DNA from: Candidatus Firestoneibacteriota bacterium
GTDB lineage: Bacteria; Oederibacteriota; D2-FULL-39-29; JBBTED01
Length of the DNA: 57,961 nucleotides
Assembly (NCBI GenBank): GCA_038042445.1
Contig: JBBTED010000136.1
Span: 1 to 57,961 of the forward strand
Direction: 5' to 3'
How positions within the stretch are numbered: position 1 is the first letter of the stretch; every line of letters begins with the position of its first letter. Positions 39,973 through 57,317 of the stretch are shown here, piece by piece. A program made the translations under genes and the position numbers. Under the pieces are notes generated by a model. It made no database searches. It was given only the letters and a program-made list of their open reading frames with translations, and was not told where the DNA came from.

Positions 39973-41792
39973 TTGGTTATATAGGAAAGAAATTTGTTGA
40001 TTCGGTTTTATTGGTTGGCCTTGAGAGGTTGGAATACAGGGGTTATGATTCTGCTGGTATTGCAACTATTTCAAATGGTGAGCTTTCTGTATTTAAAAGA
40101 GCGGGCAAATTAAAAATTTTGGATACTGCTTTAAAACAGGAGCCACTTGGCGGAAATATTGGCATAGGTCATACTCGCTGGGCTACCCATGGTGAACCTA
40201 ATGAAATCAATGCACATCCTCATACAGATTGTTCTGGTAAGATAGCTATTGTCCATAATGGAATAATTGAAAATTATATACAACTGAAAGAAAATTTAAT
40301 TAAAGAGGGGCATATATTCCAATCAGAAACTGATAGTGAAGTAATAGCGCATCTTATTGAAAAAAATACTGCAAACAAAAATTTTGAAGAGGGGACACTT
40401 GCTGCTTTTAAAGAGCTTAAAGGTGCGTATGCTGTAGTAGCAATATCTGAAGCTGAACCCGATAAAATAATTGCAGGAAGAAAAGGTAGTCCTTTAATAA
40501 TTGGTGTTGGGAAAGAAGAAAATTTTGTTGCTTCTGATTTGTCTGCAATATTGACTCATACTAACGAAATTGTTTTCTTAAATGAAGATGAGATAGCAGT
40601 AATTTCCAATAGCAAAATAAAATTTTTAAATTTAGATGGGGTGGAAGTTGAACATCCTTCCCAGAGAATAGAAATGAAAGTTACTGACTATAGCAAGGGC
40701 GAGTATTCACATTTTATGCTAAAAGAAATCTATGAACAGTCGGAAGTTATAGATAGAATTATTCAAACGTATTTTTGTGAACGGAATTTACCTGTGAAAT
40801 TTGGAGGTTTAACTTTAGGACGGGAATACCTTGCGAAAGTTGGAAAAATAATAATTCAGGCCTGTGGTACTTCCTGGCATGCAGGTTTGATAGGTAAGTT
40901 TTTACTTGAAAAATATTCAAAAATACATACTGAAGCTGATATTTCTTCTGAATTTAGATATAGAAATCCAGTCTTAGAAGGCGATACATTGCTTATTGCT
41001 ATATCGCAGTCAGGTGAAACTGCTGATACTCTTGCAGGAATAAGACAGGCAAAAAGTAAATTCATAAAAGTTTTATCTATATGCAATGTGTTGGGTAGTA
41101 GTATCGCTCGTGAATCAGACAGTAATATTGAGCTTATGGCTGGTCCTGAAATAGGAGTTGCTTCTACAAAAGCATATACTGCTGAACTTACGATACTGTA
41201 TCTTTTTGCAATATATTTTTCACGATTGAAATGGGCAATACATCAGGAACAAATGGATCAAGCTATAGCTGAGATTTTAAAAGCACCTGATTTAATAAAA
41301 AAAATATTACAAAATAACAGTGCTATTGAAAAATGTGCTGAACAATATTGTAATGCAAAGCAATTTGTTTTTCTTGGTAGAGGTGTGAATTACCCAACTG
41401 CATTAGAGGGAGCATTGAAGTTAAAAGAAATATCATATATACATGCTACTGGGTATCCTGCTGGAGAATTTAAGCATGGTCCAATAGCTTTAATTGATGA
41501 GAATACACCTGTTATTGCAATAATTCCAAAAGGAGAAATCTATCCAAAAATGTTTTCAAATATTTTAGAAGTTCGGGCAAGAAAAGGAAAAGTTATAGCA
41601 ATTGCAACTGAGGGAGATGAAGACATAAAAAATATTGCAAATAATGTAATATATATTCCTGAAATTGATGAAGATTTGTCTCCACTTCTTGCTGTTATAC
41701 CATTGCAATTATTTGCATATCACGTCGCTGTTAAAAAAGGATGTGATGTAGATAAACCCAGAAATCTTGCAAAAAGTGTTACTGTAGAATAA
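39960..41792 (+). CDS. glmS: glutamine--fructose-6-phosphate aminotransferase
   Basis: MCGIVG, LEYRGYDSAG, GHTRWATHG, SQSGET, PRNLAKSVTVE. Confidence 0.98.
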   Translation: MCGIVGYIGKKFVDSVLLVGLERLEYRGYDSAGIATISNGELSVFKRAGKLKILDTALKQEPLGGNIGIGHTRWATHGEPNEINAHPHTDCSGKIAIVHNGIIENYIQLKENLIKEGHIFQSETDSEVIAHLIEKNTANKNFEEGTLAAFKELKGAYAVVAISEAEPDKIIAGRKGSPLIIGVGKEENFVASDLSAILTHTNEIVFLNEDEIAVISNSKIKFLNLDGVEVEHPSQRIEMKVTDYSKGEYSHFMLKEIYEQSEVIDRIIQTYFCERNLPVKFGGLTLGREYLAKVGKIIIQACGTSWHAGLIGKFLLEKYSKIHTEADISSEFRYRNPVLEGDTLLIAISQSGETADTLAGIRQAKSKFIKVLSICNVLGSSIARESDSNIELMAGPEIGVASTKAYTAELTILYLFAIYFSRLKWAIHQEQMDQAIAEILKAPDLIKKILQNNSAIEKCAEQYCNAKQFVFLGRGVNYPTALEGALKLKEISYIHATGYPAGEFKHGPIALIDENTPVIAIIPKGEIYPKMFSNILEVRARKGKVIAIATEGDEDIKNIANNVIYIPEIDEDLSPLLAVIPLQLFAYHVAVKKGCDVDKPRNLAKSVTVE

Positions 41793-41794
41793 AA

Positions 41795-42598
41795 ATGAAA
41801 ATCGTAGCCAAAATAAAAATAACTTCATTACTATTGATAGTTTCATCGATATTTATACCTATTGCTATTATTTTAGAGTTTTTACTAATGGAACTGAATC
41901 ATACATTTTTTGCAATATTGGCAACAGAAATTGGGTGTATCACTGCAATAACAATTCTTGCAATTTTAATGCTGATAAAAGTGGAGAATAGATTAGAAGA
42001 ATTTGTTAAATCAATTAAACCTTCAAATAAAACAGTGGTTTTTAATAAAAAAAACGATGAGATGGATATACTTCAAAAATCCTTTTGTGATATGCAACAT
42101 AACATAAAAGGTTTATCACAAGTAGCAAAACTTGATGTTATAGATACTCAGACAGGTTTGTATACACATAGCCATTTTCATGAGGTTTTGGATGCTGAAT
42201 TGAAAAATTCACAAAATCTATCTGTAGTTTTGATTGATATTGATCACTTCAAAAAATATAATACTAGCAAAGGGTATAAGTCAGGAGATAATATATTAAA
42301 ACAAATCAGTAATATTTTGAAAAATTTAATAAATGATAAAGGCTTGTTATTTAGATATGGTGGAGAAGAGATTGCTGGAATTTTTAAAAACTTATCAAAA
42401 GAAGAAGTATATAATTTGCTTGAAAACATAAGGAATATTGTAGAGAAGGATAATTCAATTGGTTTAACATTTAGTTGTGGGATTGCAGGTTATCCTGTTG
42501 ATGCGCAGGATAAAGATGATTTGCTAAAACATACAGGTGAAGCATTGTATATGGCGAAATATGGTGGAAGGAATGCAGTTTGTATTTATACACCATAG
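41795..42598 (+). CDS. membrane-bound GGDEF-domain protein (diguanylate cyclase-like)
   Basis: Two TM helices, DTQTGL, DIDHFK, RYGGEEI, ALYMAK..GRN. Confidence 0.88.
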   Translation: MKIVAKIKITSLLLIVSSIFIPIAIILEFLLMELNHTFFAILATEIGCITAITILAILMLIKVENRLEEFVKSIKPSNKTVVFNKKNDEMDILQKSFCDMQHNIKGLSQVAKLDVIDTQTGLYTHSHFHEVLDAELKNSQNLSVVLIDIDHFKKYNTSKGYKSGDNILKQISNILKNLINDKGLLFRYGGEEIAGIFKNLSKEEVYNLLENIRNIVEKDNSIGLTFSCGIAGYPVDAQDKDDLLKHTGEALYMAKYGGRNAVCIYTP

Positions 42599-42614
42599 AT
42601 TTTTTGGGTAAAAT

Positions 42615-43232
42615 ATGGATAAAAATAAAGTAACGATGGTTTTTTTAGGGCATATAATACGTCCGATAGTATATCTTATTCTTATACTAATTATATATTT
42701 TGCACTGCAATATTCAAATATAGTATCTGCTAAAATCTTAGATAAGACAGCATATATTTTAATTGTATTTGCATCTTCCTATCTGATTTCAAAAATATTT
42801 GGTGCTTTGTTGAGATGGTATTTGCATAGAATGGATGTAAAAACAACAGGTAGACTGGAAAGTAAATTTTTGCCATTTGCAGATAAAATCTCAATAATAG
42901 TTATTTGTACAATTGCAATTTTAATGACTCTCCAGCATTTTGGTCAGAACATCTCAGCTTTTCTTGCAACTTTAGGGTTTCTTTCGTTGGCTGTAGCGTT
43001 GGCTTTACAGGAAGTTATTGCTAATATTATTGCTGGTTTTGTGATAATGTTAGATGCTCCATTTTCTGTAGGTGATAAGATTAAATTATTGCCGTCTGGT
43101 GAAATAGGTGAAATTATTTCAATAGGATTGAAAAGTACACGATTGAAATCAAGTTCTGCTGATGTAGGAATTTTAGTTATTCCTAATGCAGAATTAGCAC
43201 GAACAAGAATCATTAATCTTTCAAAGCAATAG
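42615..43232 (+). CDS. MscS family mechanosensitive channel (short)
   Basis: ALALQEVIAN, PFSVGD, IGLKST, IPN; lacks the C-terminal cytoplasmic domain. Confidence 0.85.
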   Translation: MDKNKVTMVFLGHIIRPIVYLILILIIYFALQYSNIVSAKILDKTAYILIVFASSYLISKIFGALLRWYLHRMDVKTTGRLESKFLPFADKISIIVICTIAILMTLQHFGQNISAFLATLGFLSLAVALALQEVIANIIAGFVIMLDAPFSVGDKIKLLPSGEIGEIISIGLKSTRLKSSSADVGILVIPNAELARTRIINLSKQ

Positions 43233-43268
43233 GGGGATAAAATTAAAAAAATAAACAAAAAGGATGCA

Positions 43269-43616
43269 TTGTCTGATAAAGAACTTGCTGTTTTACTTGC
43301 TAAAGCTGTGGATGCTAAAAAAGGGTTAGATATCTTGATACTTAATTTAAAAAAATTTAATTTTATTCTTGATTATTTTATAATAGTTAGTGGGACATCA
43401 GATTCGCATGTTAGAGCTCTTGCTGATGCAATAGAGTTTGAGTTGGAAAAGAATGGATTAAGGTTAAAACATAAAGAAGCGGATAAAATTTCTAACTGGA
43501 TTTTGATGGATTGTGGAAATGTTGTAGCGCATATTTTCCATAAAGATTCGAGAAAATTTTATGCACTGGAACGGCTTTGGGGTGATGCGAAAACATTAGA
43601 ATATGACAATGACTGA
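43269..43616 (+). CDS. rsfS: ribosome silencing factor
   Basis: KKGLDI, DYFIIVSG, WILMD, HIF, FYALERLW. Confidence 0.95.
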   Translation: MSDKELAVLLAKAVDAKKGLDILILNLKKFNFILDYFIIVSGTSDSHVRALADAIEFELEKNGLRLKHKEADKISNWILMDCGNVVAHIFHKDSRKFYALERLWGDAKTLEYDND

Positions 43617-45327
43617 AAAGAATGGTTTAACCATATTTGAAATTAAAAATTTACTTGCAAAGTTTGTTGAAGATTCATTGTTAAAGGCAAAAGAAAATAA
43701 AGAAATAGAATTTAATGTTGGAATTTTACCTAAAATCCTTTTCGAACAGCCTAAAGATAAAAAATTTGGAGATCTTGCAACAAATTTTGCTATAGATTTT
43801 GCCAGAAAAACAAAGATAGCATCGCGTAAAATAGCAGAGATTGTTATTGTATTTCTTAAAGAATCAAACATAAAAATTATTAGCAAAATAGAAGTTGCAG
43901 GGCCTGGATTTTTAAATTTTTTCCTGAATTATACTGAATTAACAAAAGTTTTATTGGATATAGAGAATACACATGAAAATTATGGCTGTTTAGATTATTT
44001 TGCAGGTAAATCTATTAATGTTGAATTTGTAAGTGCTAATCCTGTTGGTCCTTTAAATATTGTTAATGCCAGAGCTGCTGCTGTTGGAGATTGTCTTTGT
44101 AGGTTACTTACTAAAGCAGGATATATCCAAGTTGTAAGAGAATATTATATAAATGATGCAGGTAATCAAATAAAAATTTTTGGTGAATCTGTTGCATCAA
44201 GATATAAACAAGCATTAGGTGTAGATGTTGTGTTTCCTGAAAATGGATATCAAGGTGAATACGTAAAAGATATTGCAAATTGGATAAAAGAAACGTATAA
44301 CGACAAATATTTGAGTTTTTCACAAGAAGAACAGGCAAGTATTTTGGGAAAGTTGGCATCTTTACGGATAATTGAGGAGCAAAAATCTGAGCTTAAAAAT
44401 TTCGGTGTTGAATTTGATGTATGGTTTTCTGAAAAAACTTTACATACTGTAAATAAAGTTAAAGATACATTGGATTTGCTTAAAACTAAAGAATGTGTTT
44501 ATGAAAAAGATAATGCAATATGGCTGAAGACAACACAGTTTGGTGATGACAAAGATAGAGTTCTTGTAAAAGAAAATGGTGATTGGACATATTTCCTTGT
44601 AGATATAGCATATCATATAGATAAATTTAAAAGAGGGTTTAATACTCTTTTGGATATATGGGGTCCTGATCATCATGGCCATATTATAAGAATGAAATCT
44701 GCTATGTCATCTTTAGGAATTGACCCTTCAAGTCTTGTAGTTTTAATAGCACAACAGGTGAATTTAATTCATGAAGGTGAAGTATTGGCTATGTCTAAAC
44801 GTGCAGGAAAATTTATAACAATGAAAGAGCTTGTAGATGAAGTTGGAGCAGATGTTGTTAAATATTTTTTCATAATGAAAAGTTTAGATGCGCATTTTGA
44901 TTTTGATATAGAACTTGCTAAAAAACATTCAGATGAAAATCCTGTGTATTATATTCAATATGCTTTTGCACGAATATGCAGTATCTTAAGAAATTCTAAA
45001 GAGTCAGTAGTTGCCGATTTATCGGCAAAAAATATATCAGAAGTAAATCTTGTATTGCTGAAAGAAGAAGAAGAACATGAGCTTATATTTAAATTAGCTT
45101 CTTTTCCTGAATTAATTTTAAATTCCGCTATATTTTATGCTCCACACTGGTTGCCAAAATATTTAGAAGAACTTGCAAGTATTTTTCATAGGTTTTATAC
45201 AGAATGCAAAGTTTTATCAGATGATAAAGATTTAACATTAGCAAGATTATTGTTAGTTTCTTCAACAAAAACCGTTATAAAAAACGGTTTAGATTTAATG
45301 GGTATTTCCACACCTGAAAAGATGTAA
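43603..45327 (+). CDS. argS: arginine--tRNA ligase
   Basis: FGDLATN, AGPGFLNF, EFVSANP, YYINDAGNQ, MSKRAG, NPVYYIQYA, PEKM. Confidence 0.97.
   Translation: MTMTEKNGLTIFEIKNLLAKFVEDSLLKAKENKEIEFNVGILPKILFEQPKDKKFGDLATNFAIDFARKTKIASRKIAEIVIVFLKESNIKIISKIEVAGPGFLNFFLNYTELTKVLLDIENTHENYGCLDYFAGKSINVEFVSANPVGPLNIVNARAAAVGDCLCRLLTKAGYIQVVREYYINDAGNQIKIFGESVASRYKQALGVDVVFPENGYQGEYVKDIANWIKETYNDKYLSFSQEEQASILGKLASLRIIEEQKSELKNFGVEFDVWFSEKTLHTVNKVKDTLDLLKTKECVYEKDNAIWLKTTQFGDDKDRVLVKENGDWTYFLVDIAYHIDKFKRGFNTLLDIWGPDHHGHIIRMKSAMSSLGIDPSSLVVLIAQQVNLIHEGEVLAMSKRAGKFITMKELVDEVGADVVKYFFIMKSLDAHFDFDIELAKKHSDENPVYYIQYAFARICSILRNSKESVVADLSAKNISEVNLVLLKEEEEHELIFKLASFPELILNSAIFYAPHWLPKYLEELASIFHRFYTECKVLSDDKDLTLARLLLVSSTKTVIKNGLDLMGISTPEKM
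45007..45026 (+). repeat. GTAG-type REP inside the argS coding sequence
   Basis: Identical to 5069..5088; read in frame as VVADLSA. Confidence 0.65.
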
Positions 45328-45360
45328 TGCGAGGTTATTCTAAAATTGTAGTGGGTTTTT

Positions 45361-45392
45361 CCCTCTTTGTAAAAGAGGGGCAGGGGAGATTT
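45361..45392 (+). repeat. CCCCCTT/AAGGGGG family repeat (variant)
   Basis: CCCTCTTT-GTA-AAAGAGGG-GCAGGGGAGATTT with compensatory change in the stem. Confidence 0.65.
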
Positions 45393-45395
45393 TAA

Positions 45396-45677
45396 GTGAA
45401 TACTGCAACACATATTTTTGTTTCAGGAATTGTACAAGGAGTGTGTTTTCGCGCTTTTGTATATGAAAATGCAAGAGCATTTAATGTTAATGGTTGGGTT
45501 AGAAACTTAAATGATGGCAGAGTAGAAGCATTTTTTGAAGGCAGTAAAAAAAATATTGATAAAATGATTGAATTGTGTAAAATAGGTCCATCAGGCGCAA
45601 AAGTAACAAATATAGACATAAATGATGAGATTTATACTGGAAAATTTAAAGATTTCACAATACAATATAGGGGGTAA
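45396..45677 (+). CDS. acyP: acylphosphatase
   Basis: SGIVQGVCFR, GWVRNL.DGRVE, GPSGA. Confidence 0.93.
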   Translation: MNTATHIFVSGIVQGVCFRAFVYENARAFNVNGWVRNLNDGRVEAFFEGSKKNIDKMIELCKIGPSGAKVTNIDINDEIYTGKFKDFTIQYRG

Positions 45678-45682
45678 TTACT

Positions 45683-45934
45683 ATGGCAATAAAAAAGAAA
45701 GTGATGTCATTTACTGTAGTATTTGAAAAAGCAATAGAAGGTGGATATATTGTAACTGTACCAATACTTCCTGGTTGCATGACACAAGGTGAAACTTTTG
45801 AAGAAGCAGAAGAAATGGTAAAAGATGCAATCAAATGTTATTGTGAGAGTTTAACCAAACATGGTGAATCAATTCCTGAAGAGAATGAAGAATTTATAGG
45901 AAAAGTTTCTGTGCCAGTGATGGTAGGGAAATGA
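45683..45934 (+). CDS. hicB: HicB family antitoxin
   Basis: GGYIVTVP.LPGCMTQGETFEEA. Confidence 0.92.
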   Translation: MAIKKKVMSFTVVFEKAIEGGYIVTVPILPGCMTQGETFEEAEEMVKDAIKCYCESLTKHGESIPEENEEFIGKVSVPVMVGK

Positions 45935-46155
45935 GTAATCGTCTTGGTAGCATAAAACCTAAAGAGTTTATTCGTAAGTTAAAGAAAGCTGGATTTTGGA
46001 TTGATCATCAAACAGGTAGTCATGTAATTTTACTAAATAGTAAGGAATGTCGTGTTGTAGTGCCGTATCATATTAAAGAAATGAAACGAGGACTTCTCTT
46101 CGGTTTGATTAAACAAGCAGGCTTTACTGTAGAAGAGTTTCAAAAATGGAAATGA
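45931..46155 (+). CDS. hicA: HicA family toxin
   Basis: L.KAGF..QTGSH, VVVPYH, IKQAG. Confidence 0.92.
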   Translation: MSNRLGSIKPKEFIRKLKKAGFWIDHQTGSHVILLNSKECRVVVPYHIKEMKRGLLFGLIKQAGFTVEEFQKWK

Positions 46156-46285
46156 ATTTTGAAAAGACAGATTTAGATTTGCGAATTAAGGAAGAATTAG
46201 TTCCTGTAGTTGAATCGGCAAAAGTATAAATGAAAATTTTTATATGTTTAATTTTATATTTTGACGATACTGTAAAAAGTTTTAT

Positions 46286-46334
46286 GTAGGGCAAGGCTTT
46301 AGCCTTGCAAAGCAAACCTAAAGGTTTGTTCTGC
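46286..46334. repeat. GTAG-type REP doublet
   Basis: GTAGGGCAAGGCTTTAGCCTTGC..GCAAACCTAAAGGTTTGTTCTGC; similar to 52496. Confidence 0.75.
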
Positions 46335-46362
46335 AAAACCATTTTAATTTTTAGGAGATTTT

Positions 46363-48456
46363 ATGAAAAAGATATTATTATTGTTTTTACTTTTTTCAGT
46401 TTCAGTATTTGCTCAATCTCAAGAGACAAAGAAACCAGAAAGGTTATTTATTAAAACTTTTGAAGTAAAAGAAGGAATTCCTGCTACGTTATCAGAATAT
46501 TTTCGTGATAAATTAGTTCTTTATTTTTTTCAGGAAGCAGGTGAGAAATACAGGGTTCTCTCTGAAGCGGATATAAATATAATGTATAAACAGGCAAAGG
46601 ATCTTTTAACAGTAGGATGTGATGCAGAATCATGTCTTATACAGATTGCTTATGCAATTGATGCTGATTTAATTGTTTATGGTAGGATAGAGAAGAAAGA
46701 AGGTAAAATTCATACTTTTGCCCAGACGATAATAAGGGATAGAAAAACAAATGAGCTTGAGAAAGGCTCTGTTGTTGAGGTTTCTTTTTACCAATCCCAG
46801 TTGGAGTGGTTTGCAAAAGAAATCGTTAAAAAATTAATCAATCCAAAATATTTAATTGATACAAGTAAGGCACCAACAGAAGTAAAGATAGAACTTGAGA
46901 TGAAAGAACTTAATCTTCCTGCCTTGAAAGGGCTTAATATAAGTATTTTGGAATTTAAGACAGATGATACAACAATAGGAATGATACTTGATTATTCAAA
47001 GCCTCTATTAGAAGAAGGGGATAACTATTTTAAAAGCAGGAATTATGAAATTGCGCTAAAAAAATATCAGCAGATTATAGAAAAAATTGAGACAAAACTA
47101 CCTGAATCAAGACAGACAAAACTTGCTACTTTTAAATCATCAATTGAAGATAGAATTATCTCATCTTATGGAATGTATTTTAAAGCAAGAATAGAGAAGG
47201 AAGATAGTATTGCAAAACAAGGGCAATATGAAAACGCATTAAGTGGATATGAGGATATAAAATACGAGCTCAATCAAATAAAAGATAAATATAAAACAGG
47301 GTTGAATGATCTATATAAAGTATTATCAGAGCGATTGGATGCTATTTATTTAATACAGGCAGAATATAATGAAAAGCAGGGTGATATATTTTATTCTGAA
47401 TATAAATTTAATGATGCCATATGGAAGTATGAAGAAGGCCTCTTATTTCTTTGGAAAATTTATTTCAAAAAAAGCCCTGAATATAAAAATTATGAGGCAC
47501 AACTTACAGAAAAAAAAGAAGTTGTGAATAAGACAGGTTATTCATATTTTAAAAACACAATAAAATCATACTGTGAATGGATTGATTATTATAATTTTTC
47601 TGAGCAGGAAACAAAAGCAAAAGAGACATTAACGACAGCAAGAGATTTTATGCTGAGAAGTAGATGGGTAAATGATTCTGATGTCCGAGAAGAATATAAT
47701 GAACGTGCAAAAATACTGCAAGAGACAGAAATAACAGGGATAATAACATTATCTGATACAAGTAAGATGAAGAATGTAGGTGGAATAGAATTTGTATTTA
47801 TACCAGCAGGTAGTTTTTTTATGGGCGCATCTGATAGTGATTTAGATGCAGGTATAAATGAGAAACCACAGCATAAAGTTAAAATATCAGGATTTTGGAT
47901 GGGTAAGTATGAAGTAACCCAAGAGCAATATAAAACAATAATGGGAAACAATCCAAGTTATTTTGAAGGTAAGAATAGGCCAGTTGAACAAGTGGGATGG
48001 AATAGTGCAAATGAATTTTGTGAAAAGTTCAGTAAAAAATATGGTATAGAATGTAGATTGCCAACAGAAGCAGAGTGGGAATATGCCTGTAGGGCAGGAA
48101 CAACAACAAAGTATTATTGGGGAGATAAGATAAGTGGAGATTATTGCTGGTATGATGCTAACTCAAACAGGGAGATGCATCCAGTGGGGCAAAAGAAACC
48201 AAATAGATGGGGATTATATGATATGACTGGTAATGTCTGGGAATTGTGCAATGATTGGTTTGATGATAAATATTATGAAAAGAGTCCTAAAGATAATCCA
48301 AAAGGACCTGATACAGGTTATTATAAAGTTTTTCGTGGCGGCTCGTGGTACAGTATTGCTAACGGCAATCGCTCCGCCTATCGTAACTGGAGTTCACCAG
48401 ACGACAGGAACGACAAGGTGGGTTTCCGTTGCGTGCTGAGTAGTGCTAATAAGTAG
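46363..48456 (+). CDS. exported CsgG-like + helical repeat + FGE/SUMF1 (CLec-fold) protein; candidate DGR target
   Basis: Signal peptide; GCDAESC; IPAGSFFMG, E.PQH.V, YEVTQ, RLPTEAEWEYACRAG, PNRWGLYDM.GNVWE, RGGSW, GFRCV. Confidence 0.9.
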   Translation: MKKILLLFLLFSVSVFAQSQETKKPERLFIKTFEVKEGIPATLSEYFRDKLVLYFFQEAGEKYRVLSEADINIMYKQAKDLLTVGCDAESCLIQIAYAIDADLIVYGRIEKKEGKIHTFAQTIIRDRKTNELEKGSVVEVSFYQSQLEWFAKEIVKKLINPKYLIDTSKAPTEVKIELEMKELNLPALKGLNISILEFKTDDTTIGMILDYSKPLLEEGDNYFKSRNYEIALKKYQQIIEKIETKLPESRQTKLATFKSSIEDRIISSYGMYFKARIEKEDSIAKQGQYENALSGYEDIKYELNQIKDKYKTGLNDLYKVLSERLDAIYLIQAEYNEKQGDIFYSEYKFNDAIWKYEEGLLFLWKIYFKKSPEYKNYEAQLTEKKEVVNKTGYSYFKNTIKSYCEWIDYYNFSEQETKAKETLTTARDFMLRSRWVNDSDVREEYNERAKILQETEITGIITLSDTSKMKNVGGIEFVFIPAGSFFMGASDSDLDAGINEKPQHKVKISGFWMGKYEVTQEQYKTIMGNNPSYFEGKNRPVEQVGWNSANEFCEKFSKKYGIECRLPTEAEWEYACRAGTTTKYYWGDKISGDYCWYDANSNREMHPVGQKKPNRWGLYDMTGNVWELCNDWFDDKYYEKSPKDNPKGPDTGYYKVFRGGSWYSIANGNRSAYRNWSSPDDRNDKVGFRCVLSSANK
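48334..48438 (+). other. putative DGR variable region
   Basis: 57% GC by hand count versus about 30% background, CGN Arg codons, NNC/NNT codons at the positions that vary in FGE-type DGR targets. Confidence 0.65.
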
Positions 48457-48530
48457 TTGAATATCTGAGTATCTGTAATCTGAATATCTGGAAAGAATAT
48501 TATAAGGTTTATGAAGTATGGAATTTCAAG

Positions 48531-48803
48531 TGTTTAATAACAGAAGAAACAAAAGTAACAAGTCAGCACCAGATTACGATTCCAAAACCAATATGGGAAA
48601 AACTTAAGTTGAGAGAGGGTATAAGATTTTCTATTTTTCTTACTGAGAATAATGATATATTAGTGAAACCAAAAGACGAGGTATTAGAATTATCTGATGA
48701 AGAATGGAGCAAACTTGTTTCACTTGCTTGTAATAAAAAAAATATCTCTAAAAAATTCAAAAAGACAAACGAAGCAATTAAGTATTTGAAAAGAGTATTA
48801 TGA
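48531..48803 (+). pseudogene. AbrB/MazE-type antitoxin lacking an in-frame canonical start
   Basis: LITEETKVTSQHQITIPKPIWEKLKLREG..ILVKP; upstream ATG/GTG is one base out of frame. Confidence 0.6.
48586..48630 (+). repeat. 45-bp direct repeat, copy 1
   Basis: Matches 49810..49854 with one mismatch. Confidence 0.85.
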
Positions 48804-48858
48804 GGGTGTCTCATAATCCAGATTTTGTTATTCAGACTGTGTGACAATTACATTTTTT

Positions 48859-48881
48859 CGCAGGCTAAAGCCTGCGGCTAC
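48859..48881 (-). repeat. GTAG-type REP (single arm)
   Basis: CGCAGGCTAAAGCCTGCGGCTAC; matches the right arm of 52496..52551. Confidence 0.7.
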
Positions 48882-49017
48882 CATAAATTTTTCCATTCAG
48901 TAAAATCCCAAAAAATTTCTTAAAAACTCTTTAACAATTTAGGATTTTCTGCTATAATAAAACAATCAATATGATATTTAAAGATTTTACAATACGATAT
49001 AGTTTGTAAAAGAAAGA

Positions 49018-49533
49018 ATGAATAAAACTGTAGAATTTAAAAGAGCTATCATGAAATTTAAATTATATTTAGATACATCTATATTAAGTGCTTACTTTGA
49101 TTATGGTAAACCGATAAGGCAATTAATAACTCAAAAATGGTTTGAAAATGAGGCGCAATATTATGAATTATATATATCAGTTATAACAATAGAAGAGGTT
49201 GAAAGAGTGCAAAATATTTCAAAAAAGGATAATATAAAAAAATTAATTGTCGATTATGATATGAAGATTTTAGAATTATCAGAAGAAGCGAAAAATTTAG
49301 CAAATGAATATATAAAAGAAGTCGCTATACCAAGGTCAGAACCTGAAGATGCATATCACATTGCTATTGCTGTAGTGAATAAAACTGAAGGGTTAGCCTC
49401 ATGGAATTTTAAGCATATAGTGAGTTTAAATTCAATAAGTAAGATACATAAAATTAACAAACTACTTAATTATCTCATAATTGAGATTGGTTCATTAGAA
49501 ATATTTGGAGGTGCAAAATATGGTAATTTATAA
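49018..49533 (+). CDS. PIN domain (VapC-like) protein
   Basis: LYLDTS, EDAYHIAIA, SWNFKHIV; true start may be 49051. Confidence 0.88.
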   Translation: MNKTVEFKRAIMKFKLYLDTSILSAYFDYGKPIRQLITQKWFENEAQYYELYISVITIEEVERVQNISKKDNIKKLIVDYDMKILELSEEAKNLANEYIKEVAIPRSEPEDAYHIAIAVVNKTEGLASWNFKHIVSLNSISKIHKINKLLNYLIIEIGSLEIFGGAKYGNL

Positions 49534-49702
49534 AAATGATTATACAAAAGAGAGAGATGAAACATTATGGGAATTGCATGAAATAAGAAATAAGTTATAT
49601 AAAGAATTAAAAGATAAATCTGTAGAAAAGATAAATCGTGGGGCAATAAATAAATATTTAAGTTGGCAAAAACAGAGAGGTAAAATTTTGGTAGGTAGAT
49701 AG
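49520..49702 (+). CDS. small protein, probable antitoxin partner of the PIN protein
   Basis: SD GGAGG, overlaps the PIN stop; LWELHEIRNKLY helix. Confidence 0.55.
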   Translation: MVIYKNDYTKERDETLWELHEIRNKLYKELKDKSVEKINRGAINKYLSWQKQRGKILVGR

Positions 49703-49809
49703 TTTTTGGTAATGCAAAAGTTAGGTAACAAAGCTCTGTAATTGATGAAATTATAAAAAGAGCAATTTTATACAATTTATTTTACACTACTCAAGGCAAA
49801 ATTGACAAT

Positions 49810-49854
49810 AACCAATATGGGAAAAACTTAAGTTGAAAGAGGGTATAAGATTTT
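49810..49854 (+). repeat. 45-bp direct repeat, copy 2
   Basis: Matches 48586..48630. Confidence 0.85.
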
Positions 49855-49899
49855 GATTGAAATTTTAAACTGAATAGTAAATAAACGAAAGGGGTTGTT

Positions 49900-50691
49900 A
49901 TGAAAATAGTTGCTTGTATAAAACAGGTTCCTGCAACAGATTTATGGATAAAGTTGACTGCTGATGAAAAAGGGATAGATTTCAGTGATTTAACTTATGT
50001 GGTAAATCCCTATGATGAATTTGCAGTGGAAGAAGCTTTACGGATAAAAGAAAAAAATACTGGGAGTAATGTGTTGGTTGTTTCTATGGGGACAGCAAAA
50101 ACAATAGATGCTATAAGAAGTTGTCTTGCACTTGGAGCAGATGATGCCATACATCTAAAAGATGAGTTATTTGAAGGAGCAGATGCTAATACTACGGCAT
50201 TTCTTTTGGGTGAAGCAATAAAGAAACGTGGGTTTGATTTGATTCTGTGTGGTAAGCAGGCGGTAGATGATGATAATGCGTCTGTTGGAATAATGCTTGC
50301 AGAAATTTTGAATGTCCCTCATATTGCAGTAATTACAAAATTAGAAATAAGCGCTGATGGTAAAAGTGCAGTTGCTCATAGGGAAATTGAAGGAGCTGTT
50401 GAAGTGATAGAATGTCCTTTGCCTGCTGTATTTACCTGTCAGAAAGGTTTAAATGAGCCACGTTATGCTTCTTTGACAAATGTTATGAAAGCAAAGAAAA
50501 AACCTGTTGAAGAAATAGATAAAGTGAAGCTTGCAATTGCAGATACATCTTTTTCTGCTAAAGAAAGTTCTAAAGCGAAAGTTATAAAATATTCAAGACC
50601 ACCAAAAAGAAGTGCAGGTAAAATTATTCCATCAGATAATAAAGAAACAGCAGTTCAGGAATTGGTAAAAGTTCTAACACCAATTATATAA
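49900..50691 (+). CDS. etfB: electron transfer flavoprotein beta subunit
   Basis: CIKQVP, NPYDEFAVEEA, GAD, CGKQAVD, NEPRY. Confidence 0.95.
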   Translation: MKIVACIKQVPATDLWIKLTADEKGIDFSDLTYVVNPYDEFAVEEALRIKEKNTGSNVLVVSMGTAKTIDAIRSCLALGADDAIHLKDELFEGADANTTAFLLGEAIKKRGFDLILCGKQAVDDDNASVGIMLAEILNVPHIAVITKLEISADGKSAVAHREIEGAVEVIECPLPAVFTCQKGLNEPRYASLTNVMKAKKKPVEEIDKVKLAIADTSFSAKESSKAKVIKYSRPPKRSAGKIIPSDNKETAVQELVKVLTPII

Positions 50692-50707
50692 AGAAAGTGA
50701 GGCATAG

Positions 50708-51691
50708 ATGAGTGGAATTTTAATTATTGCAGAATATAAAAATAACAATTTTAAAAAAGTCACTTTTGAAGCTGTAACTTGTGGAAGACAATTAGCAAAA
50801 GAATTAAATGCTGATTTACTTGTTGCAGTATTAGGTGACAAAATTGCAGATTTATCTCAGGAATTTGCAGATTGGGGAGTTAATAAAATTATACTTGCTG
50901 AAAATGAACTTTTGAAGAATTATACTTCAGATGGGTATGCGAAAATTTTATCTGACATAGTTGGTAAATACAAACCTGATTTAATATTATTAGGTGCTAC
51001 AGCATTTGGAAGAGATATAGCTCCTAAATTAGCAGCTAAATTAAATGTAGGAATAGCAAATGATTGTATTGCATTAAAATTTGATGAAAATAAAAATTTA
51101 GTTGGGACACGACCTATGTATGCAGGAAAAATCCTTGCAGATATTGTAATAGAGGGTATGCCTAAAATATTTACGATAAGGCAAAATGTATTTCCTGCAG
51201 AGAAAATGAGTGGAATATCTTCTACTATGGAAAATTTCGAAGTAAAGCTTTTTCAGGAAGATATCCACACAAAAATTAAAGAGGTTATAGATTCACTGGG
51301 CAACAAAATTGAGCTTACTGAGGCAGATATAATTGTATCGGGTGGTAGAGGAATGAAGGGGCCGGAGAATTTTAAAATACTTGACGAGCTTGCAGATGTT
51401 TTAAAAGCTGCAGTTGGAGCTTCACGCGCTGCTGTTGATGCAGGTTGGAAACTTCATGAATCGCAAGTAGGTCAGACTGGTAAAACGGTTTCTCCAAAAC
51501 TTTATATTGCCTGTGGTATTTCCGGTTCCATACAGCATCTTGCAGGAATGTCATCTTCAAAATGTATAGTTGCAATAAACAAAGATCCTGAGGCACCAAT
51601 ATTTAAACTCGCAGACTATGGGATTGTTGGAGATTTATTTGAAATTGTTCCACTTTTAACTGCAGAATTTAAGAAGGCGAAATCCCGTTAG
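50708..51691 (+). CDS. etfA: electron transfer flavoprotein alpha subunit
   Basis: [37 protein letters not shown]. Confidence 0.96.
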
Positions 51692-51721
51692 GAATTTTGT
51701 TTATCAATGTTTTAAAGACAC

Positions 51722-51748
51722 TGGGTTCCCGCTTTCGCGGGAATGACA
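51722..51748 (-). repeat. GTCATTCCCG-family palindromic repeat arm
   Basis: TGGGTTCCCGCTTTCGCGGGAATGACA, near-perfect reverse complement of 22909..22935. Confidence 0.75.
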
Positions 51749-51752
51749 AAAA

Positions 51753-52478
51753 ATGAATATACCTATATTGATGTATCACCATGTAAAAAATGATCCTGTG
51801 CCTTTTGAAGCTTCTTTTACTGTATCTATTGATAATTTTGAGCAACAGATGCAGTATTTGAATAATAAGAAATACAATATAATTACTTTAGAAGATCTAA
51901 TAAGTGCAGTAAAATCAAATGAAAAAATTTTGGCAAAAACTTGTGTTATAACATTTGACGATGGATATGAAAATTTTCTTGATTTTGCATATCCTGTATT
52001 GCAAAAATATAATTTTGTTGCAACCGTATTTTTGACAAGTGGGTGTATAGGAGATATTAGCAAGTGGGATGCAAAATATGTAAACGCTAAATTGTTGTCA
52101 AAGGAACAAATTTGTGAGTTATCTAAAAATGGAATTTCTTTTGGGTCACATAGCAAAACACATCCTCATTTTTCAAAATTAAACAGCGATGAAATTTTAA
52201 GAGAAATTGTTGAGTCCAAAAAAGAAATAGAAGGCATATTAGGTAAACGAATTAATACTTTTTCATATCCATACAACGAATATAATTTTAATATCGAAAA
52301 ACTTGTAGAAAAAGCAGGTTTTGATTGCGCTTGTGCAATTAGGTCACATAACAGGACTGTTACAGAAAATGTATATGCATTACGTCGTATCAATGTAAAG
52401 AATAGTGATAAACTTTTTCAGTTCAGCCGTAAAATTTCACGTTGGTATTTATGGTACCGCGGGATTAGAAGAAGATGA
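51753..52478 (+). CDS. polysaccharide deacetylase family protein
   Basis: PILMYH, ITFDDGY, GSHSKTH, FSYPY. Confidence 0.92.
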   Translation: MNIPILMYHHVKNDPVPFEASFTVSIDNFEQQMQYLNNKKYNIITLEDLISAVKSNEKILAKTCVITFDDGYENFLDFAYPVLQKYNFVATVFLTSGCIGDISKWDAKYVNAKLLSKEQICELSKNGISFGSHSKTHPHFSKLNSDEILREIVESKKEIEGILGKRINTFSYPYNEYNFNIEKLVEKAGFDCACAIRSHNRTVTENVYALRRINVKNSDKLFQFSRKISRWYLWYRGIRRR

Positions 52479-52495
52479 TAGGTTACCATTTCTAT

Positions 52496-52551
52496 GTAGG
52501 GCAAAGCTTTAGCCTTGCGATGAAAAAACGCAGGCTAAAGTCTGCGACTAC
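52496..52551. repeat. GTAG-type REP doublet
   Basis: GTAGGGCAAAGCTTTAGCCTTGC..CGCAGGCTAAAGTCTGCGACTAC. Confidence 0.75.
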
Positions 52552-52596
52552 AGAGAAACAAAAAATTTTAACATATTGTATTTGATGGAGGGGAAT

Positions 52597-53695
52597 ATGA
52601 TTGATGAATTATTAGAGGAACTCAAAAAATTGAATGTTAAAATTGGTGAAATAGGGAGGTGTCTTTGATGTAGAAGTAAAAGAAGCAGAAAGTAGAAATA
52701 TCGAAAAGCAAATTGAAACTCCAGGTTTTTGGGTTAATCAGGCAAAAGCTTCTGCATTAATGAAACAGCTTAATGATTTAAAACGAACCATTTTTGAGTG
52801 GCGCAAAGTAGAATCCAAATATAATGACCTTATCTCTTTAAGTGAATTATTGAAAGAAGAACCTGATTCTTCTTTAGAAAATGAACTTTCAAAAGAACTT
52901 TCCAGTTTAAAAAATGAAATTGAAAATTTAGAAATCCAGACTTTATTTTCAGAAGAATATGATAATCATAATGCTATTTTAAGTATTCATCCGGGTGCTG
53001 GTGGTACAGAATCTCAGGATTGGGCACAAATGCTTTTTAGAATGTATTCACGCTGGGCAGAACAAAAGGGGTATAAATTAGAGACAGTTGATTTATTACC
53101 TGGGGAAGAAGCAGGACTAAAAAGTGTTACATTTATGATAAGTGGAAATTATGCTTATGGTAGCTTGAAATCGGAAAAAGGAGTGCATAGGTTAGTTAGA
53201 ATTTCACCATTTGATGCTAATAAGAGGCGGCATACATCATTTGCATCTGTTGATGTTATACCGGAAATTGAAGATGTAGAAATCGAAATTAAAAGTGATG
53301 ATTTAAAAATAGATACTTTTCGTTCTTCCGGGCCTGGTGGTCAGCATATGCAAAAAACCGAGTCAGCAATCAGAATAACTCATATTCCTACAGGGATAAT
53401 TGCTCAATGCGAAAATGAACGGTCTCAATTCCAAAATAAAGTAACAGCTATGAAAGTTTTGCGCGCGCGAATTTTTGAGAGAATGCAAGAGGAGAATGCA
53501 GATAAAATGGAAAAATTAACAGGTCAGAAAAAAGAAATAACATGGGGAAGTCAAATTCGTTCCTATGTATTTCAACCTTATACAATAATAAAAGATCATC
53601 GCACAGGTATAGAAGTTGGAAATATTCAAGCAGTTATGGATGGCGAAATTGATGTTTTTATACGTGGATATTTACACGATAAATTTGAGAAATAA
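52597..53695 (+). CDS. prfB: peptide chain release factor 2 with programmed +1 frameshift
   Basis: ATG at 52597; AGGGAGG-TGT-CTT-TGA at 52653..52668; the +1 frame joins ORF 52760..53695 with SPF and GGQ motifs. Confidence 0.96.
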
Positions 53696-53758
53696 TAATT
53701 CTATCAAATAAAAATGTGACTTTTTTTTGTGTATATGTTAAAATTTTATCGTTTATTT

Positions 53759-53790
53759 CCCCCTTTGAAAAGGGGGAGTAAGGGGGATTT
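53759..53790 (+). repeat. CCCCCTT/AAGGGGG palindromic repeat
   Basis: CCCCCTTTGAAAAGGGGGAGTAAGGGGGATTT immediately before the purC ATG. Confidence 0.75.
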
Positions 53791-53791
53791 T

Positions 53792-54676
53792 ATGCAAAAC
53801 AATATAATACTTAAGACTGATTTGCAGGGACTAAAGTTATTCAAACGTGGCAAAGTCCGAGATGTTTATGATTTTGGAGAAAATTTATTGATTGTCGCAA
53901 GTGACAGAATTTCTGCATTTGATGTGGTGTTGCCAAATGGTATACCCAATAAGGGAATGGTGCTTACACAGGTTTCAAACTTCTGGTTTAACTATACAAA
54001 AGATATAATACCAAATCATTGTGTAAGTGTTAATACAAATTCTTTTCCAATGGAATGTGAACAGTATAAAAATATTTTGGATGGCAGGAGTATGTTAGTC
54101 AAAAAAACAAAATCTTTACCTGTTGAATGTGTTATTCGTGGGTGTTTATCTGGTTCTGCATGGAAAGAATATTGTAGCAATAACACTGTCAGTGGAATAA
54201 AATTAGAAAAAGGTTTGCTTGAATCTTCTAAATTGTCAGAGCCAATATTTACACCTTCTACAAAAGCACAAGATGGAGCTCATGATGAAAATATTAATTT
54301 TAACCAAATGGTTAATATTATTGGTAAAGAACTCGCAGAAAAAATACGAGTTCTAAGTCTAAGAGTTTATATAAAAGCAAGCAAATTTGCACAAGAAAAA
54401 GGAATAATAATTGCAGATACAAAATTTGAATTTGGAATATATAATGGTGAGTTGATGATAATAGATGAAATGCTTACACCTGATTCATCAAGGTTTTGGC
54501 AAAAAGATGAGTATAAAACAGGTGATTCTCCAAAGAGTTTTGATAAACAATTTGTTCGCGATTATTTAATTTCAATTAAATGGGATATGAAACCCCCAGC
54601 TCCAGAACTTCCAGAAGAAGTCATCAATAAAACAAGCGAAAAATATATGGAAGCTCTGAAGCGGTTGACTGGTTAG
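53792..54676 (+). CDS. purC: phosphoribosylaminoimidazolesuccinocarboxamide (SAICAR) synthase
   Basis: [47 protein letters not shown]. Confidence 0.96.
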
Positions 54677-54703
54677 GCGAGCTTTTACTAAAAGGAAAAA
54701 ATA

Positions 54704-55630
54704 ATGCCAAATTTAATTTCGCAGAAAACAATAGAGAAAAAGATATATTTAATAAGAGGTCAAAAAGTTATGCTTGATAGAGATCTTGCTGATTTGTATG
54801 GAGTAGAAACAAGAGTATTGAATCAAGCAGTAAGAAGAAATATAGACCGTTTTCCAGAAGATTTTATGTTTTCATTAACGAGAGAAGAAATAATGAACTT
54901 ATCACAAATTGTGATAAGTTCCAAAATAAAGCATGCTCCTAATGTATTTGTTTTTGCAGAACAGGGGGTTGCTATGCTTTCCAGTGTGCTTAATAGTAAA
55001 CAGGCTATTCAGGTTAATATAGGTATTATGCGAGTGTTTGTTAATATAAGAAAATTAGTATCTTCAAATAAAGAAGTTATTAACAGACTTAATCAACTTG
55101 AAGAAAAGGTGGAAAAACAAGGTAAAGAGATAAAAAGGGATATAAAAACAATTTTTGAGGTAATTCATAGACCTTTATTGCCTTCAGCTACAACTTTAAT
55201 CTCTCCTCTTAAACCATTTAGTAATAAAATGGCTATTTTTGATGTTATTAAATCCTGTGAGGGATATATTTACTGGATAGATAAATATTTTTCAAGTCTT
55301 GGTTTGAAATTATTATTACAGGCATTAGATAATGAAAAAGTTAAACAAATAAAGATTTTGACATCCATAGACAAAGTTGATGAAAAAATAATGGATTTAT
55401 TTAAAGATTTTAAGGTAGAGTTAAAAAACAAAGGAATTTCCTGTGAAATGAGAGTAATTACAGATAAAAAAATAAAAGCCAATATTCACGATAGATGGAT
55501 AATCTCAAAGGATAAATGTTTTAATGTTCCATCAACAGATACACTAGCAAGAGGACAATACAGCGAAGTAAAAGAAACAACAAATAAACCCCCATTTAAT
55601 GAATGGTGGGAGAGAAGCGAGAAACTGTAA
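54704..55630 (+). CDS. ORF6N domain protein with C-terminal PLD-like (HDR) domain
   Basis: IRGQKVMLDRDLADLYGV..RFPEDFMF..EQGVAMLSSVLNS; coiled coil; WIDKYF..IHDRWIIS. Confidence 0.85.
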   Translation: MPNLISQKTIEKKIYLIRGQKVMLDRDLADLYGVETRVLNQAVRRNIDRFPEDFMFSLTREEIMNLSQIVISSKIKHAPNVFVFAEQGVAMLSSVLNSKQAIQVNIGIMRVFVNIRKLVSSNKEVINRLNQLEEKVEKQGKEIKRDIKTIFEVIHRPLLPSATTLISPLKPFSNKMAIFDVIKSCEGYIYWIDKYFSSLGLKLLLQALDNEKVKQIKILTSIDKVDEKIMDLFKDFKVELKNKGISCEMRVITDKKIKANIHDRWIISKDKCFNVPSTDTLARGQYSEVKETTNKPPFNEWWERSEKL

Positions 55631-55708
55631 AATGGAAAAAATAAAAAGTTAAAACAAAAAGGTTGCATTTTAAACAGTATAGTTAAAATTTATAAGAAGG
55701 ATCAAATA

Positions 55709-56212: not shown

Positions 56213-56289
56213 GAAAATTAAAAATATTAAAAGGAAGAAAATGGATATTAAAATTTAGTTGTAAGATGAAGTAAAAAGGGAGAAAAATA

Positions 56290-57261: not shown

Positions 57262-57317
57262 TTAATGAATAATTTAGAATTCGTAAGGATAATATGTTCT
57301 AAAAGAGAGAGAAAAAT

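What the first reader, a model, noticed from the sequence alone, without database searches (positions are those of the whole stretch)
46363..48491. Orphan (remote) DGR target: FGE/CLec surface protein with a foreign-looking variable region
Seen: the last about 105 bp of the FGE domain (RGGSW..GFRCV) jump to 57% GC in a roughly 30% GC gene and switch to CGT/CGC/TCG/GCC codons. Non-conserved positions are mostly NNC/NNT codons (TAC AGT ATT, AAC GGC AAT, TAT, GAC GAC, AAC GAC), as expected from adenine mutagenesis of an AAC/AAT-rich template. Four ATCTG repeats follow the stop. Established: DGRs diversify this C-terminal segment of FGE-type CLec proteins, and remote targets exist. No RT, Avd or template repeat is visible in the window. 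Inference: a trans-acting chromosomal DGR diversifies an exported CsgG-like/helical/CLec protein.
Basis: partly seen in the sequence, partly recalled or inferred. Interest (0 to 1): 0.85.

Follow-up and report, generated by a model that had tools for sequence, protein, structure and literature searches.

The report
Orphaned hypermutation target, machinery deleted
An exported protein gene still carries the tail segment that a mutation-generating retroelement (DGR) rewrites in a relative. The retroelement's own genes beside it have been cut away, so it is most likely a frozen leftover, not a working diversity system.

Summary
Window 48335-48439 is 56% GC in a 32% GC genome, in the top 0.09% of 105-nt windows. 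Four ATCTG repeats follow the stop codon, and this is the only such cluster in the genome.

The gene (46363-48456, 697 aa) encodes a signal peptide, a CsgG/LpoB-like domain, a helical region and an FGE/C-type-lectin domain. It is a genuine DGR-type target. In a Candidatus Firestonebacteria relative (G005), an intact cassette (target, avd, TR, RT) diversifies three FGE genes with adenine-only mismatches.

The window's VR 3' end, stop codon, ATCTG block, avd leader and avd start codon are 85% identical in nucleotides to that cassette. The homology stops two to three codons into avd, at about 48529. A MazE-like/PIN pair follows where avd, TR and RT should be.

The 90%-complete MAG has no DGR reverse transcriptase, no Avd and no template repeat. 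Its only RT is a Drt3b defence enzyme. Contigs from three groundwater samples (two studies) carry the same VR allele and the same truncated junction.

Most likely (about 0.6) this is a decayed DGR locus with a frozen variable region. Diversification in trans by an unassembled DGR remains possible (about 0.25). Degenerate DGR loci are already described, so interest is modest.

The parts
46363..48456 (+). DGR-type target gene, 697 aa. Signal peptide (aa 1-20, inferred from the sequence MKKILLLFLLFSVSVFAQS), CsgG/LpoB-like domain (aa ~20-175), helical/TPR-like region (aa ~176-470), FGE/CLec domain (aa 476-691).
   Evidence: ORF. Pfam FGE-sulfatase E 2e-53. Atlas look-alikes for aa 20-175. Weak TPR hits. 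Full-length relatives.
47788..48435 (+). FGE-sulfatase (C-type-lectin fold) domain
   Evidence: 182 bits, profile positions 4-254 of 255.
48331..48446 (+). Variable-region (VR)-like segment, adenine-poor at scaffold codons and 53-56% GC. Its cognate template repeat was not found.
   Evidence: Codon alignment to the TR and VRs of relative G005. GC rarity. TR scans of the own genome were negative.
48457..48491 (+). VR 3' flank with four ATCTG direct repeats. The block follows all three G005 VRs, which carry adenine-only differences from the TR, but not the TR itself. Probable target-site marker (inferred).
   Evidence: It does not fold as a hairpin (DNA fold z +0.85).
48492..48529 (+). Remnant of the avd leader plus the avd start (ATG GAA T at 48519-48525). 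Homology to the intact cassette ends here.
   Evidence: blastn of window 48414-48529 against G005 L124 4134-4247: 85.5% over 117 nt, E 7e-26. Alignment. G005 Avd matches Pfam bAvd at E 7e-21.
48540..48803 (+). MazE/AbrB-like antitoxin reading frame at the place where avd-TR-RT would lie. No ATG/GTG/TTG precedes the domain; the first listed start is TTG at 48609.
   Evidence: Pfam MazE_antitoxin E 1e-6. Frame read. ORF list.
49018..49533 (+). PIN-domain protein, probable toxin partner
   Evidence: Pfam PIN E 3.2e-9.
45683..46155 (+). HicB-like and HicA-like pair directly upstream of the target gene
   Evidence: Pfam HicB_lk_antitox E 2.2e-11 and HicA_toxin E 3.4e-14.

Best explanation
The gene is the target gene of a diversity-generating retroelement whose own machinery has been deleted from this locus.

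Inferred history: the locus was once target-VR-(ATCTG block)-avd-TR-RT. The RT copied the TR RNA with errors at adenines, and the cDNA replaced the last ~115 nt of the FGE/CLec domain. This varied about 13 ligand-contact codons on an exported protein anchored by a CsgG/LpoB-like domain.

A deletion or replacement with its left end in avd codon 3 then removed avd, TR and RT. A MazE-like/PIN pair now abuts the stump. The VR is therefore frozen in its last state.

Its high GC content is the signature of adenine-free coding of the invariant scaffold residues. The loss is probably recent, because the VR, the repeat block and even the now useless avd leader are still well preserved.

Shown: homology to an intact cassette, the breakpoint, and absence of RT, Avd and TR from the assembly. 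Inferred: the direction of events (loss rather than never present), present inactivity, and the role of the ATCTG block.
For: 1. A bona fide DGR exists in relative G005 (same class, Candidatus Firestonebacteria MAG by the record title).
- Target 1 is followed by Avd (bAvd E 7e-21), the TR and a 338-aa RT (RVT_1 E 1.5e-26).
- TR-to-VR mismatches fall at TR adenines in 15 of 15, 15 of 16 and 20 of 24 cases, the last alignment containing a 3-nt indel.

2. Window 48414-48529 matches the VR1-avd junction of that cassette at 85.5% over 117 nt (E 7e-26). This covers the stop codon, the ATCTG block, the leader and ATGGAAT, and then homology ends. Over the VR itself, identity to G005's TR is only 68.5% over 124 nt.

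3. The best full-length homologue (L011, 48% identity over aa 15-693) is also followed by an avd gene (tblastn E 1.3e-8). Its VR is 62% GC in a 36% GC contig.

4. The window's amino-acid differences from the G005 template fall on AAN codons: 10 of 13 against 2 of 21.

5. The own genome lacks the machinery.
- RVT_1 finds one hit only, on C132, which is Drt3b (E 4.9e-124).
- PF05635 and PF22296 give 0 hits.
- tblastn with 7 DGR RT queries and 6 Avd queries gives a best E of 0.35.
- An ungapped scan that tolerates any template adenine finds only the VR itself; the next best place has 17 non-A and 80 total mismatches in 121. 60-mer scans are likewise negative.

6. Contigs spanning the VR and the breakpoint with 0 differences are X1 47600-48880, X2 48309-48880 and X4 (another study) 48377-48638.

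7. Two further VR-like tails in the genome look more decayed. Both C18 and C27 lack the repeat block. C27 is 43% GC, and its protein lacks the rest of the FGE domain.
Against: - The MAG is only 90% complete in 181 contigs. DGR cassettes with repeated targets assemble and bin badly; in G005 the cassette sits on 6.9- and 11-kb contigs. A second cassette could therefore be missing.
- The VR keeps full adenine-free coding and 53-56% GC. The ATCTG block is nearly identical to that of G005's VRs, which carry adenine-only differences from the TR. This is what continued use in trans would also predict.
- The read evidence comes from assembled contigs, which drop minority variants. X1 may be the source sample, and X4 covers only about 60% of the VR.
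- The cognate TR has never been seen, so adenine-specific mismatches for this particular VR are not demonstrated. Against G005's TR the window differs at 13 of 29 A positions but also at 19 of 73 non-A positions.
Confidence: 0.6

Rival explanations
1. The target is still diversified in trans. A complete DGR (avd-TR-RT, probably with its own target) lies in the unassembled or unbinned ~10% of the genome, or on a phage or plasmid of this population. It recognises the VR end plus the ATCTG block of this gene.
For: - Remote and non-adjacent targets are documented, and avd, TR and brt work in trans from a plasmid (Wu et al. 2018, PMC5758913, passages read).
- Incomplete 'degenerate' loci diversified in trans are reported in Thiohalocapsa (PMC10907252, passages read).
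- In G005, one TR matches three targets with adenine-only differences, one of them several kb away.
- The window VR and repeat block are well preserved.
- The assembly is 90% complete.
Against: - No RT, Avd or TR was found in 2.81 Mb.
- The ATCTG cluster is unique in the assembly, so no second target with this flank is seen.
- Contigs of three samples carry the identical VR allele.
- The locus itself shows that its own cassette was destroyed.
- The avd leader, which has no role in trans homing (G005 VR2 and VR3 lack it), is preserved as well as the repeat block. Preservation is therefore better explained by recency than by selection.
Confidence: 0.25
2. The deletion is polymorphic. Some strains of the population still carry the intact cassette at this locus, and the MAG represents the deleted allele.
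For: - DGR presence is sporadic among strains of a species (Wu et al. 2018, passage).
- The good preservation of the stump suggests a recent event.
Against: - The three contigs that cross 48529 (X1, X2, X4) all show the deleted form.
- No loose end at 48529 is among the rows shown, but 113 rows were not shown.
Confidence: 0.1
3. The gene was never a DGR target. It is an ordinary FGE-domain paralogue whose conserved C-terminus happens to be GC-rich, or whose 3' end was acquired by recombination from a foreign gene.
For: - FGE domains share the RGGSW...GFRCV ends regardless of DGRs.
- The third paralogue, on C133, has this motif without a GC jump.
Against: - The post-stop repeat block, the avd leader and the avd start codon are homologous to an intact cassette.
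- Variable positions coincide with template AAN codons.
- The closest full-length homologue is followed by avd.
- Orthologues P0003 and P0004 are 87% identical outside the VR (575 of 661 columns) but 51% inside it (19 of 37).
Confidence: 0.03

Closest known systems
FGE-type C-type-lectin DGR variable proteins (e.g. Treponema denticola TvpA; name recalled, not fetched)
   Same: The VR forms the last ~35-40 residues of an FGE-sulfatase/CLec domain. The scaffold residues RGGSW...CRSA.R...P..R...GFRCV are kept, and the variable positions are Asn-type codons. The protein is exported and has N-terminal accessory domains.
   Different: No cognate TR or RT is present here. The N-terminal architecture (CsgG/LpoB-like domain plus a long helical region) also occurs with two other C-terminal heads in relatives.
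The intact DGR of the Candidatus Firestonebacteria MAG G005 (contigs JBDRBU010000065/62)
   Same: The VR length is the same (34 codons from R of RGGSW to V of GFRCV). The 5' boundary is identical (TTCGTGGCGGCTCGTGG). The stop context, the ATCTG repeat block, the avd leader and the avd start are the same.
   Different: G005 keeps avd, TR and RT and has three targets. Its targets have a zinc-ribbon or other N-terminus rather than the window's scaffold. The window VR differs from G005's TR at 19 of 73 non-adenine positions, so its template was a diverged homologue.
'Degenerate' or incomplete DGR loci and candidate remote targets of Thiohalocapsa PB-PSB1 (Doré et al. 2024, PNAS, PMC10907252; passages read)
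   Same: These are loci where key machinery is missing or pseudogenised beside a recognisable target.
   Different: In Thiohalocapsa, complete loci of the same class exist in the same genome, and most incomplete loci are still diversified. Here no complete locus is found.
Remote targets of chromosomal DGRs (Wu et al. 2018, NAR, PMC5758913; passages read)
   Same: The target gene has no adjacent RT.
   Different: Remote targets are defined by A-to-N-only differences from a TR in the same genome. That criterion cannot be met here.

Membership tests
DGR target (variable protein) gene | VR at the C-terminal end of a C-type-lectin/FGE fold | tested here: met
   Pfam FGE-sulfatase covers aa 476-691. 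The VR-like segment 48331-48446 aligns codon for codon with the TR and VRs of G005.
DGR target (variable protein) gene | A cognate template repeat in the genome that differs from the VR (almost) only at template adenines | tested here: not met
   BLAST and ungapped adenine-tolerant scans of all 181 contigs find only the VR itself. The assembly is 90% complete, so absence is not proven.
DGR target (variable protein) gene | Target-site elements at the VR 3' end (IMH-type end and flank) shared with VRs of a working DGR | tested here: met
   The stop context and the four-ATCTG block match all three G005 VRs and are absent from G005's TR. Their function is inferred, not tested.
DGR target (variable protein) gene | Population-level hypervariability confined to VR codons | tested here: inconclusive
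   Only assembled contigs were available. X1, X2 and X4 show 0 differences across the VR parts they cover. Contigs hide minority variants.
Complete DGR cassette | DGR-clade reverse transcriptase | tested here: not met
   RVT_1 gives one sub-threshold hit, on C132, which is Drt3b. tblastn with 7 DGR RT queries gives a best E of 0.37.
Complete DGR cassette | Accessory protein Avd | tested here: not met
   PF05635 and PF22296 give 0 hits. tblastn with 6 Avd queries gives a best E of 0.35. Only the leader and the first two to three codons remain at 48492-48529.
CsgG/LpoB-like lipoprotein domain (N-terminus) | Sequence or fold match to PF03783/PF13036/PF11684 | tested here: inconclusive
   Pfam gives only DUF3280 at E 0.044. 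Atlas features score 0.95 and structure TM is 0.74-0.76 to CsgG/LpoB clusters. This is a lead without an E-value. There is no lipobox cysteine in the signal peptide (sequence).

The most novel reading that the evidence does not exclude
The four-ATCTG direct-repeat block is the target-recognition element of a Firestonebacteria DGR lineage. It would take the place of the hairpin/cruciform known from the Bordetella phage system (recalled, not read here). Its intact state would mean that this stump is still addressed in trans by a DGR on an unassembled element, so a gene that has lost its own cassette stays hypervariable.
Probability: 0.15. Interest if true: 0.55.

Novelty: new member of a known kind. 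Interest (0 to 1): 0.3.

Why it matters
It gives a clean, datable example of how a DGR dies. The breakpoint lies inside avd codon 3, the target and its homing signals are still intact, and older wrecks sit elsewhere in the same genome.

It explains the GC island mechanistically, as adenine-free coding of scaffold residues. That makes the island a usable sequence-only signature for present or recent DGR targets in AT-rich genomes.

It also points to DGRs in Candidatus Firestonebacteria. One full-text search found no paper that combines the two terms.

It does not reveal a new kind of system.

Tried and rejected
- Exact-pattern scans for close copies of the VR (genome contigs: 0) and for the VR flank gave little: genome contigs found only G005, viral contigs 0, metagenome contigs 0. 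No same-species sequence is held there, or it is left out, so these collections cannot supply the TR.
- An adenine-tolerant IUPAC scan of public collections was considered and dropped for that reason.
- Run X5, a strain about 3% diverged in the flanks, has no contig laid on 48352-48539. Its contigs are 116-251 nt at 3-5x depth, so this hole says nothing about a different VR or an intact cassette.
- X2's contigs break at 48309-48336, just before the VR. This could be a graph branch or low coverage, and I did not interpret it.
- Hairpin or cruciform downstream of the VR: not supported. The DNA fold is -2.3 kcal/mol with z +0.85.
- The C132 RT as the missing DGR RT: rejected, because it is Drt3b.
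- C18 and the window VR sharing one TR: unlikely. They differ at 54 of 128 positions, which would need far more template adenines than the 29 of 102 seen in G005's TR.
- Rfam (0 hits at gathering score, 44000-51000) and tRNA search (0 in 40000-57961) show no RNA gene or tRNA integration site near the locus.
- Earlier notes of this scan held nothing on this locus or on look-alike DNA.

Full report
**What is there**

The window is contig C136 of a 2.81-Mb, 181-contig MAG. It is 90% complete, 2% contaminated and 31.9% GC.

The finding's coordinates hold one ORF, 46363-48456 (+), of 697 aa.
- Pfam finds an FGE-sulfatase (C-type-lectin fold) domain at aa 476-691 (E 2e-53).
- The N-terminus has a signal-peptide-like start.
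- Residues 20-175 resemble CsgG/LpoB/DUF3280 domains. This is a lead only: Atlas feature score 0.95 and TM 0.74-0.76, with Pfam DUF3280 at E 0.044.
- Residues ~176-470 give only weak TPR hits.

- Window 48335-48439 is 56.2% GC, a value reached by 0.089% of all 105-nt windows of the genome.
- ATCTG starts at 48463, 48471, 48478 and 48486, against 0.055 copies expected in 40 nt. No other cluster of four within 45 nt exists in the assembly.
- The flank does not fold into a hairpin (z +0.85).

**A working DGR in a relative**

No close relative of this genome is held. The nearest genomes are of the same class. One of them is G005, titled a Candidatus Firestonebacteria MAG.

G005 has an RVT_1 hit 1 kb downstream of an FGE domain. 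Its contigs C65 and C62 carry, in order:
- target 1 (zinc ribbon plus FGE);
- Avd (Pfam bAvd, E 7e-21);
- a 118-nt TR;
- a 338-aa RT (RVT_1, E 1.5e-26);
- target 2 and a second, shorter avd-like ORF;
- target 3, a few kb further on.

TR-to-VR mismatches lie at template adenines in 15 of 15, 15 of 16 and 20 of 24 cases. The last alignment contains a 3-nt indel.

G005 is 32-33% GC on these contigs, yet its TR is 49% GC and its VRs are 54-57%. The GC island is therefore a property of this DGR lineage and not evidence of foreign DNA.

My reading, which is an inference, is this. Residues that must not vary have to be written in adenine-free codons (CGT GGC GGC TCG TGG, GCT, TGC, GCC and so on), and in an AT-rich genome that forces GC upward. 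In the window, the 21 scaffold codons hold 6 A in 63 nt (codons printed).

**The window locus is a stump of such a cassette**

The window VR has the same length as G005's TR (34 codons from R of RGGSW to V of GFRCV) and the same 5' boundary (TTCGTGGCGGCTCGTGG). Its amino acids differ from the template-encoded ones at 10 of 13 AAN codons, against 2 of 21 other codons (p 1.1e-4).

The flank is the decisive evidence.
- Window 48414-48529 is 85.5% identical over 117 nt (E 7e-26) to the VR1-avd junction of G005.
- This stretch runs through the VR end, the stop codon, the four-ATCTG block, the avd leader and ATGGAAT, the first two codons plus one base of avd.
- After that the two sequences are unrelated.
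- All three G005 VRs carry the ATCTG block, and the TR does not. This is what one expects of a target-site marker.
- The avd leader is shared only with VR1, the VR that really precedes avd.

In the window, what follows is a MazE/AbrB-like frame (E 1e-6), with no canonical start codon ahead of its domain, and then a PIN gene (E 3.2e-9). A HicB/HicA pair lies upstream of the target.

The best full-length homologue of the window protein is L011 (48% identity over aa 15-693). It is also followed by an avd gene (tblastn E 1.3e-8), and its VR is 62% GC in a 36% GC contig. The ancestral arrangement for this protein family is therefore a cis cassette.

**The machinery is not in the assembly**

- RVT_1 finds one sub-threshold hit in the genome, on the 2-kb contig C132. 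PADLOC identifies it as Drt3b, a defence RT (E 4.9e-124).
- Avd profiles PF05635 and PF22296 give no hit.
- tblastn with seven DGR RT queries and six Avd queries taken from the loci gives nothing better than E 0.35.
- BLAST finds only the VR itself. An ungapped scan that forgives any template adenine does too: the runner-up has 17 non-A and 80 total mismatches of 121 and lies in A-rich sequence. 60-mer scans that allow for indels are also negative.

**Population data**

Only Logan contigs were available, so minority variants are invisible.
- X1, possibly the source sample, has one contig over 47600-48880 with 0 differences.
- X2 (same study) has one over 48309-48880 with 0 differences.
- X4 (another study) has one over 48377-48638 with 0 differences.
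- All three cross the breakpoint at 48529 in the deleted form.

The junction is therefore not an assembly artefact, and the dominant VR allele is the same in three samples.

**Other wrecks in the same genome**

- C18 69790-71271 is the architectural counterpart of G005's target 1. It has a 53% GC VR-like tail but lacks the ATCTG block.
- C27 97725-99569 (-) is a sortilin/BNR-type beta-propeller protein whose last ~45 residues are a VR-like tail alone (43% GC), without the rest of the FGE domain.
- Its homologues are 690-760 aa and none of the 120 listed carries PF03781. Homology to the nearest one ends at an Asp-box (S-DDGGTTW) exactly where KVIRGGSW begins.
- A third FGE paralogue, on C133, shows no GC jump.
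- None of these tails relates to another as a TR relates to a VR.

**Is this family diversified elsewhere?**

- Orthologues P0003 and P0004 are 87% identical outside the VR (575 of 661 columns) and 51% inside it (19 of 37).
- Among 80 genome-contig loci with related FGE domains, self-BLAST finds adenine-biased repeat pairs in 4: L045, L072, L084 and L086. A DGR-type RT is found in the same four loci.
- Among 77 metagenome loci, an RT is found in 4 (L140, L189, L190, L203) and clear TR/VR pairs in 2 (L140, L190). Three further short hits (L150, L158, L170) were not examined.
- Many contigs are too short to show a cassette, so these counts are lower bounds.
- Other multi-target DGRs in these loci also keep lineage-specific short direct repeats after their VRs, for example the T-rich TTTTTAC-type repeats in L086 and L190 and the CAGYAG repeats in L072. 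The ATCTG block is therefore one variant of a wider habit.

**Verdict**

The proposed mechanism, a remote target served by a trans-acting chromosomal DGR, is not supported. The locus carries the scar of its own deleted cassette, and no machinery is found.

I put 0.6 on a recently frozen relic, 0.25 on continued diversification in trans from an unassembled DGR, 0.1 on a polymorphic deletion and 0.03 on no DGR history.

**Literature**

- Remote targets, and trans function of avd, TR and brt, are described in Wu et al. 2018 (PMC5758913, passages read).
- 'Degenerate' loci with missing machinery, some still diversified in trans, are described for Thiohalocapsa (PMC10907252, passages read).
- Roux et al. 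2021 (PMC8144416, passages read) classify DGRs as active or inactive from VR SNVs. My term search found no 'orphan', 'remnant' or 'decay' in its main text.
- One full-text search for 'diversity-generating retroelement' together with 'Firestonebacteria' returned 0 papers.
- The hairpin/cruciform element of the Bordetella phage DGR is recalled from memory and was not read here.

This is a new member of a known kind, of modest interest.

Noticed in passing
G000 contig C27 97725-99569 (-), = L206 826-2670: A BNR/sortilin-type beta-propeller protein ends in only the ~45-residue VR-like tail of an FGE domain (SKVIRGGSW...GFRCVQAVK). Its homologues are about 100 aa longer and lack FGE. The junction sits at an Asp-box (GGTTW in the homologue) that resembles RGGSW. 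This suggests a microhomology-mediated fusion or deletion, or less likely an off-target homing event.
   Followed up: partly
G000 contig C18 69790-71271 (+): This is a second orphan VR-bearing FGE gene, with a zinc-ribbon N-terminus like G005's target 1. Its tail is 53% GC, but it lacks the ATCTG block, and no RT- or avd-like ORF was seen nearby.
   Followed up: partly
G000 contig C132 3-1364 (+), = L007: A reverse transcriptase cut at its 5' end by the contig start matches Drt3b (PADLOC E 4.9e-124). It is an anti-phage defence RT and is unrelated to the DGR question.
   Followed up: partly
window 48859-48876 and 52529-52546: A GC-rich hairpin (CGCAGGC-TAAA-GCCTGCG) lies after the MazE-like ORF. 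In metagenome contigs, 48822-48915 has 300-400x summed depth against ~9x nearby, with many loose ends. It is therefore a short repeat shared by many contigs, REP-like.
   Followed up: partly
window 46363-47770 (aa 1-470) and proteins P0002-P0011: The N-terminal scaffold (signal peptide, CsgG/LpoB-like domain, long helical region) occurs in relatives with three different C-terminal heads. These are FGE/CLec, DUF5122-type repeats (PF17164), and a short C-terminal region that carries no precomputed Pfam domain. It looks like a modular display protein.
   Followed up: partly
window 48540-48803: The MazE/AbrB-like frame has no ATG, GTG or TTG ahead of its DNA-binding strand; the first start listed is TTG at 48609. 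The same rearrangement that removed avd-TR-RT may also have clipped its 5' end.
   Followed up: no
L124 (G005 C65) and L125 (G005 C62); L072, L086, L190: G005's DGR has three targets and two avd-like ORFs. In several unrelated multi-target DGRs, the sequence just after each VR holds lineage-specific short direct repeats (ATCTG; T-rich TTTTTAC-type; CAGYAG) and no strong hairpin.
   Followed up: partly
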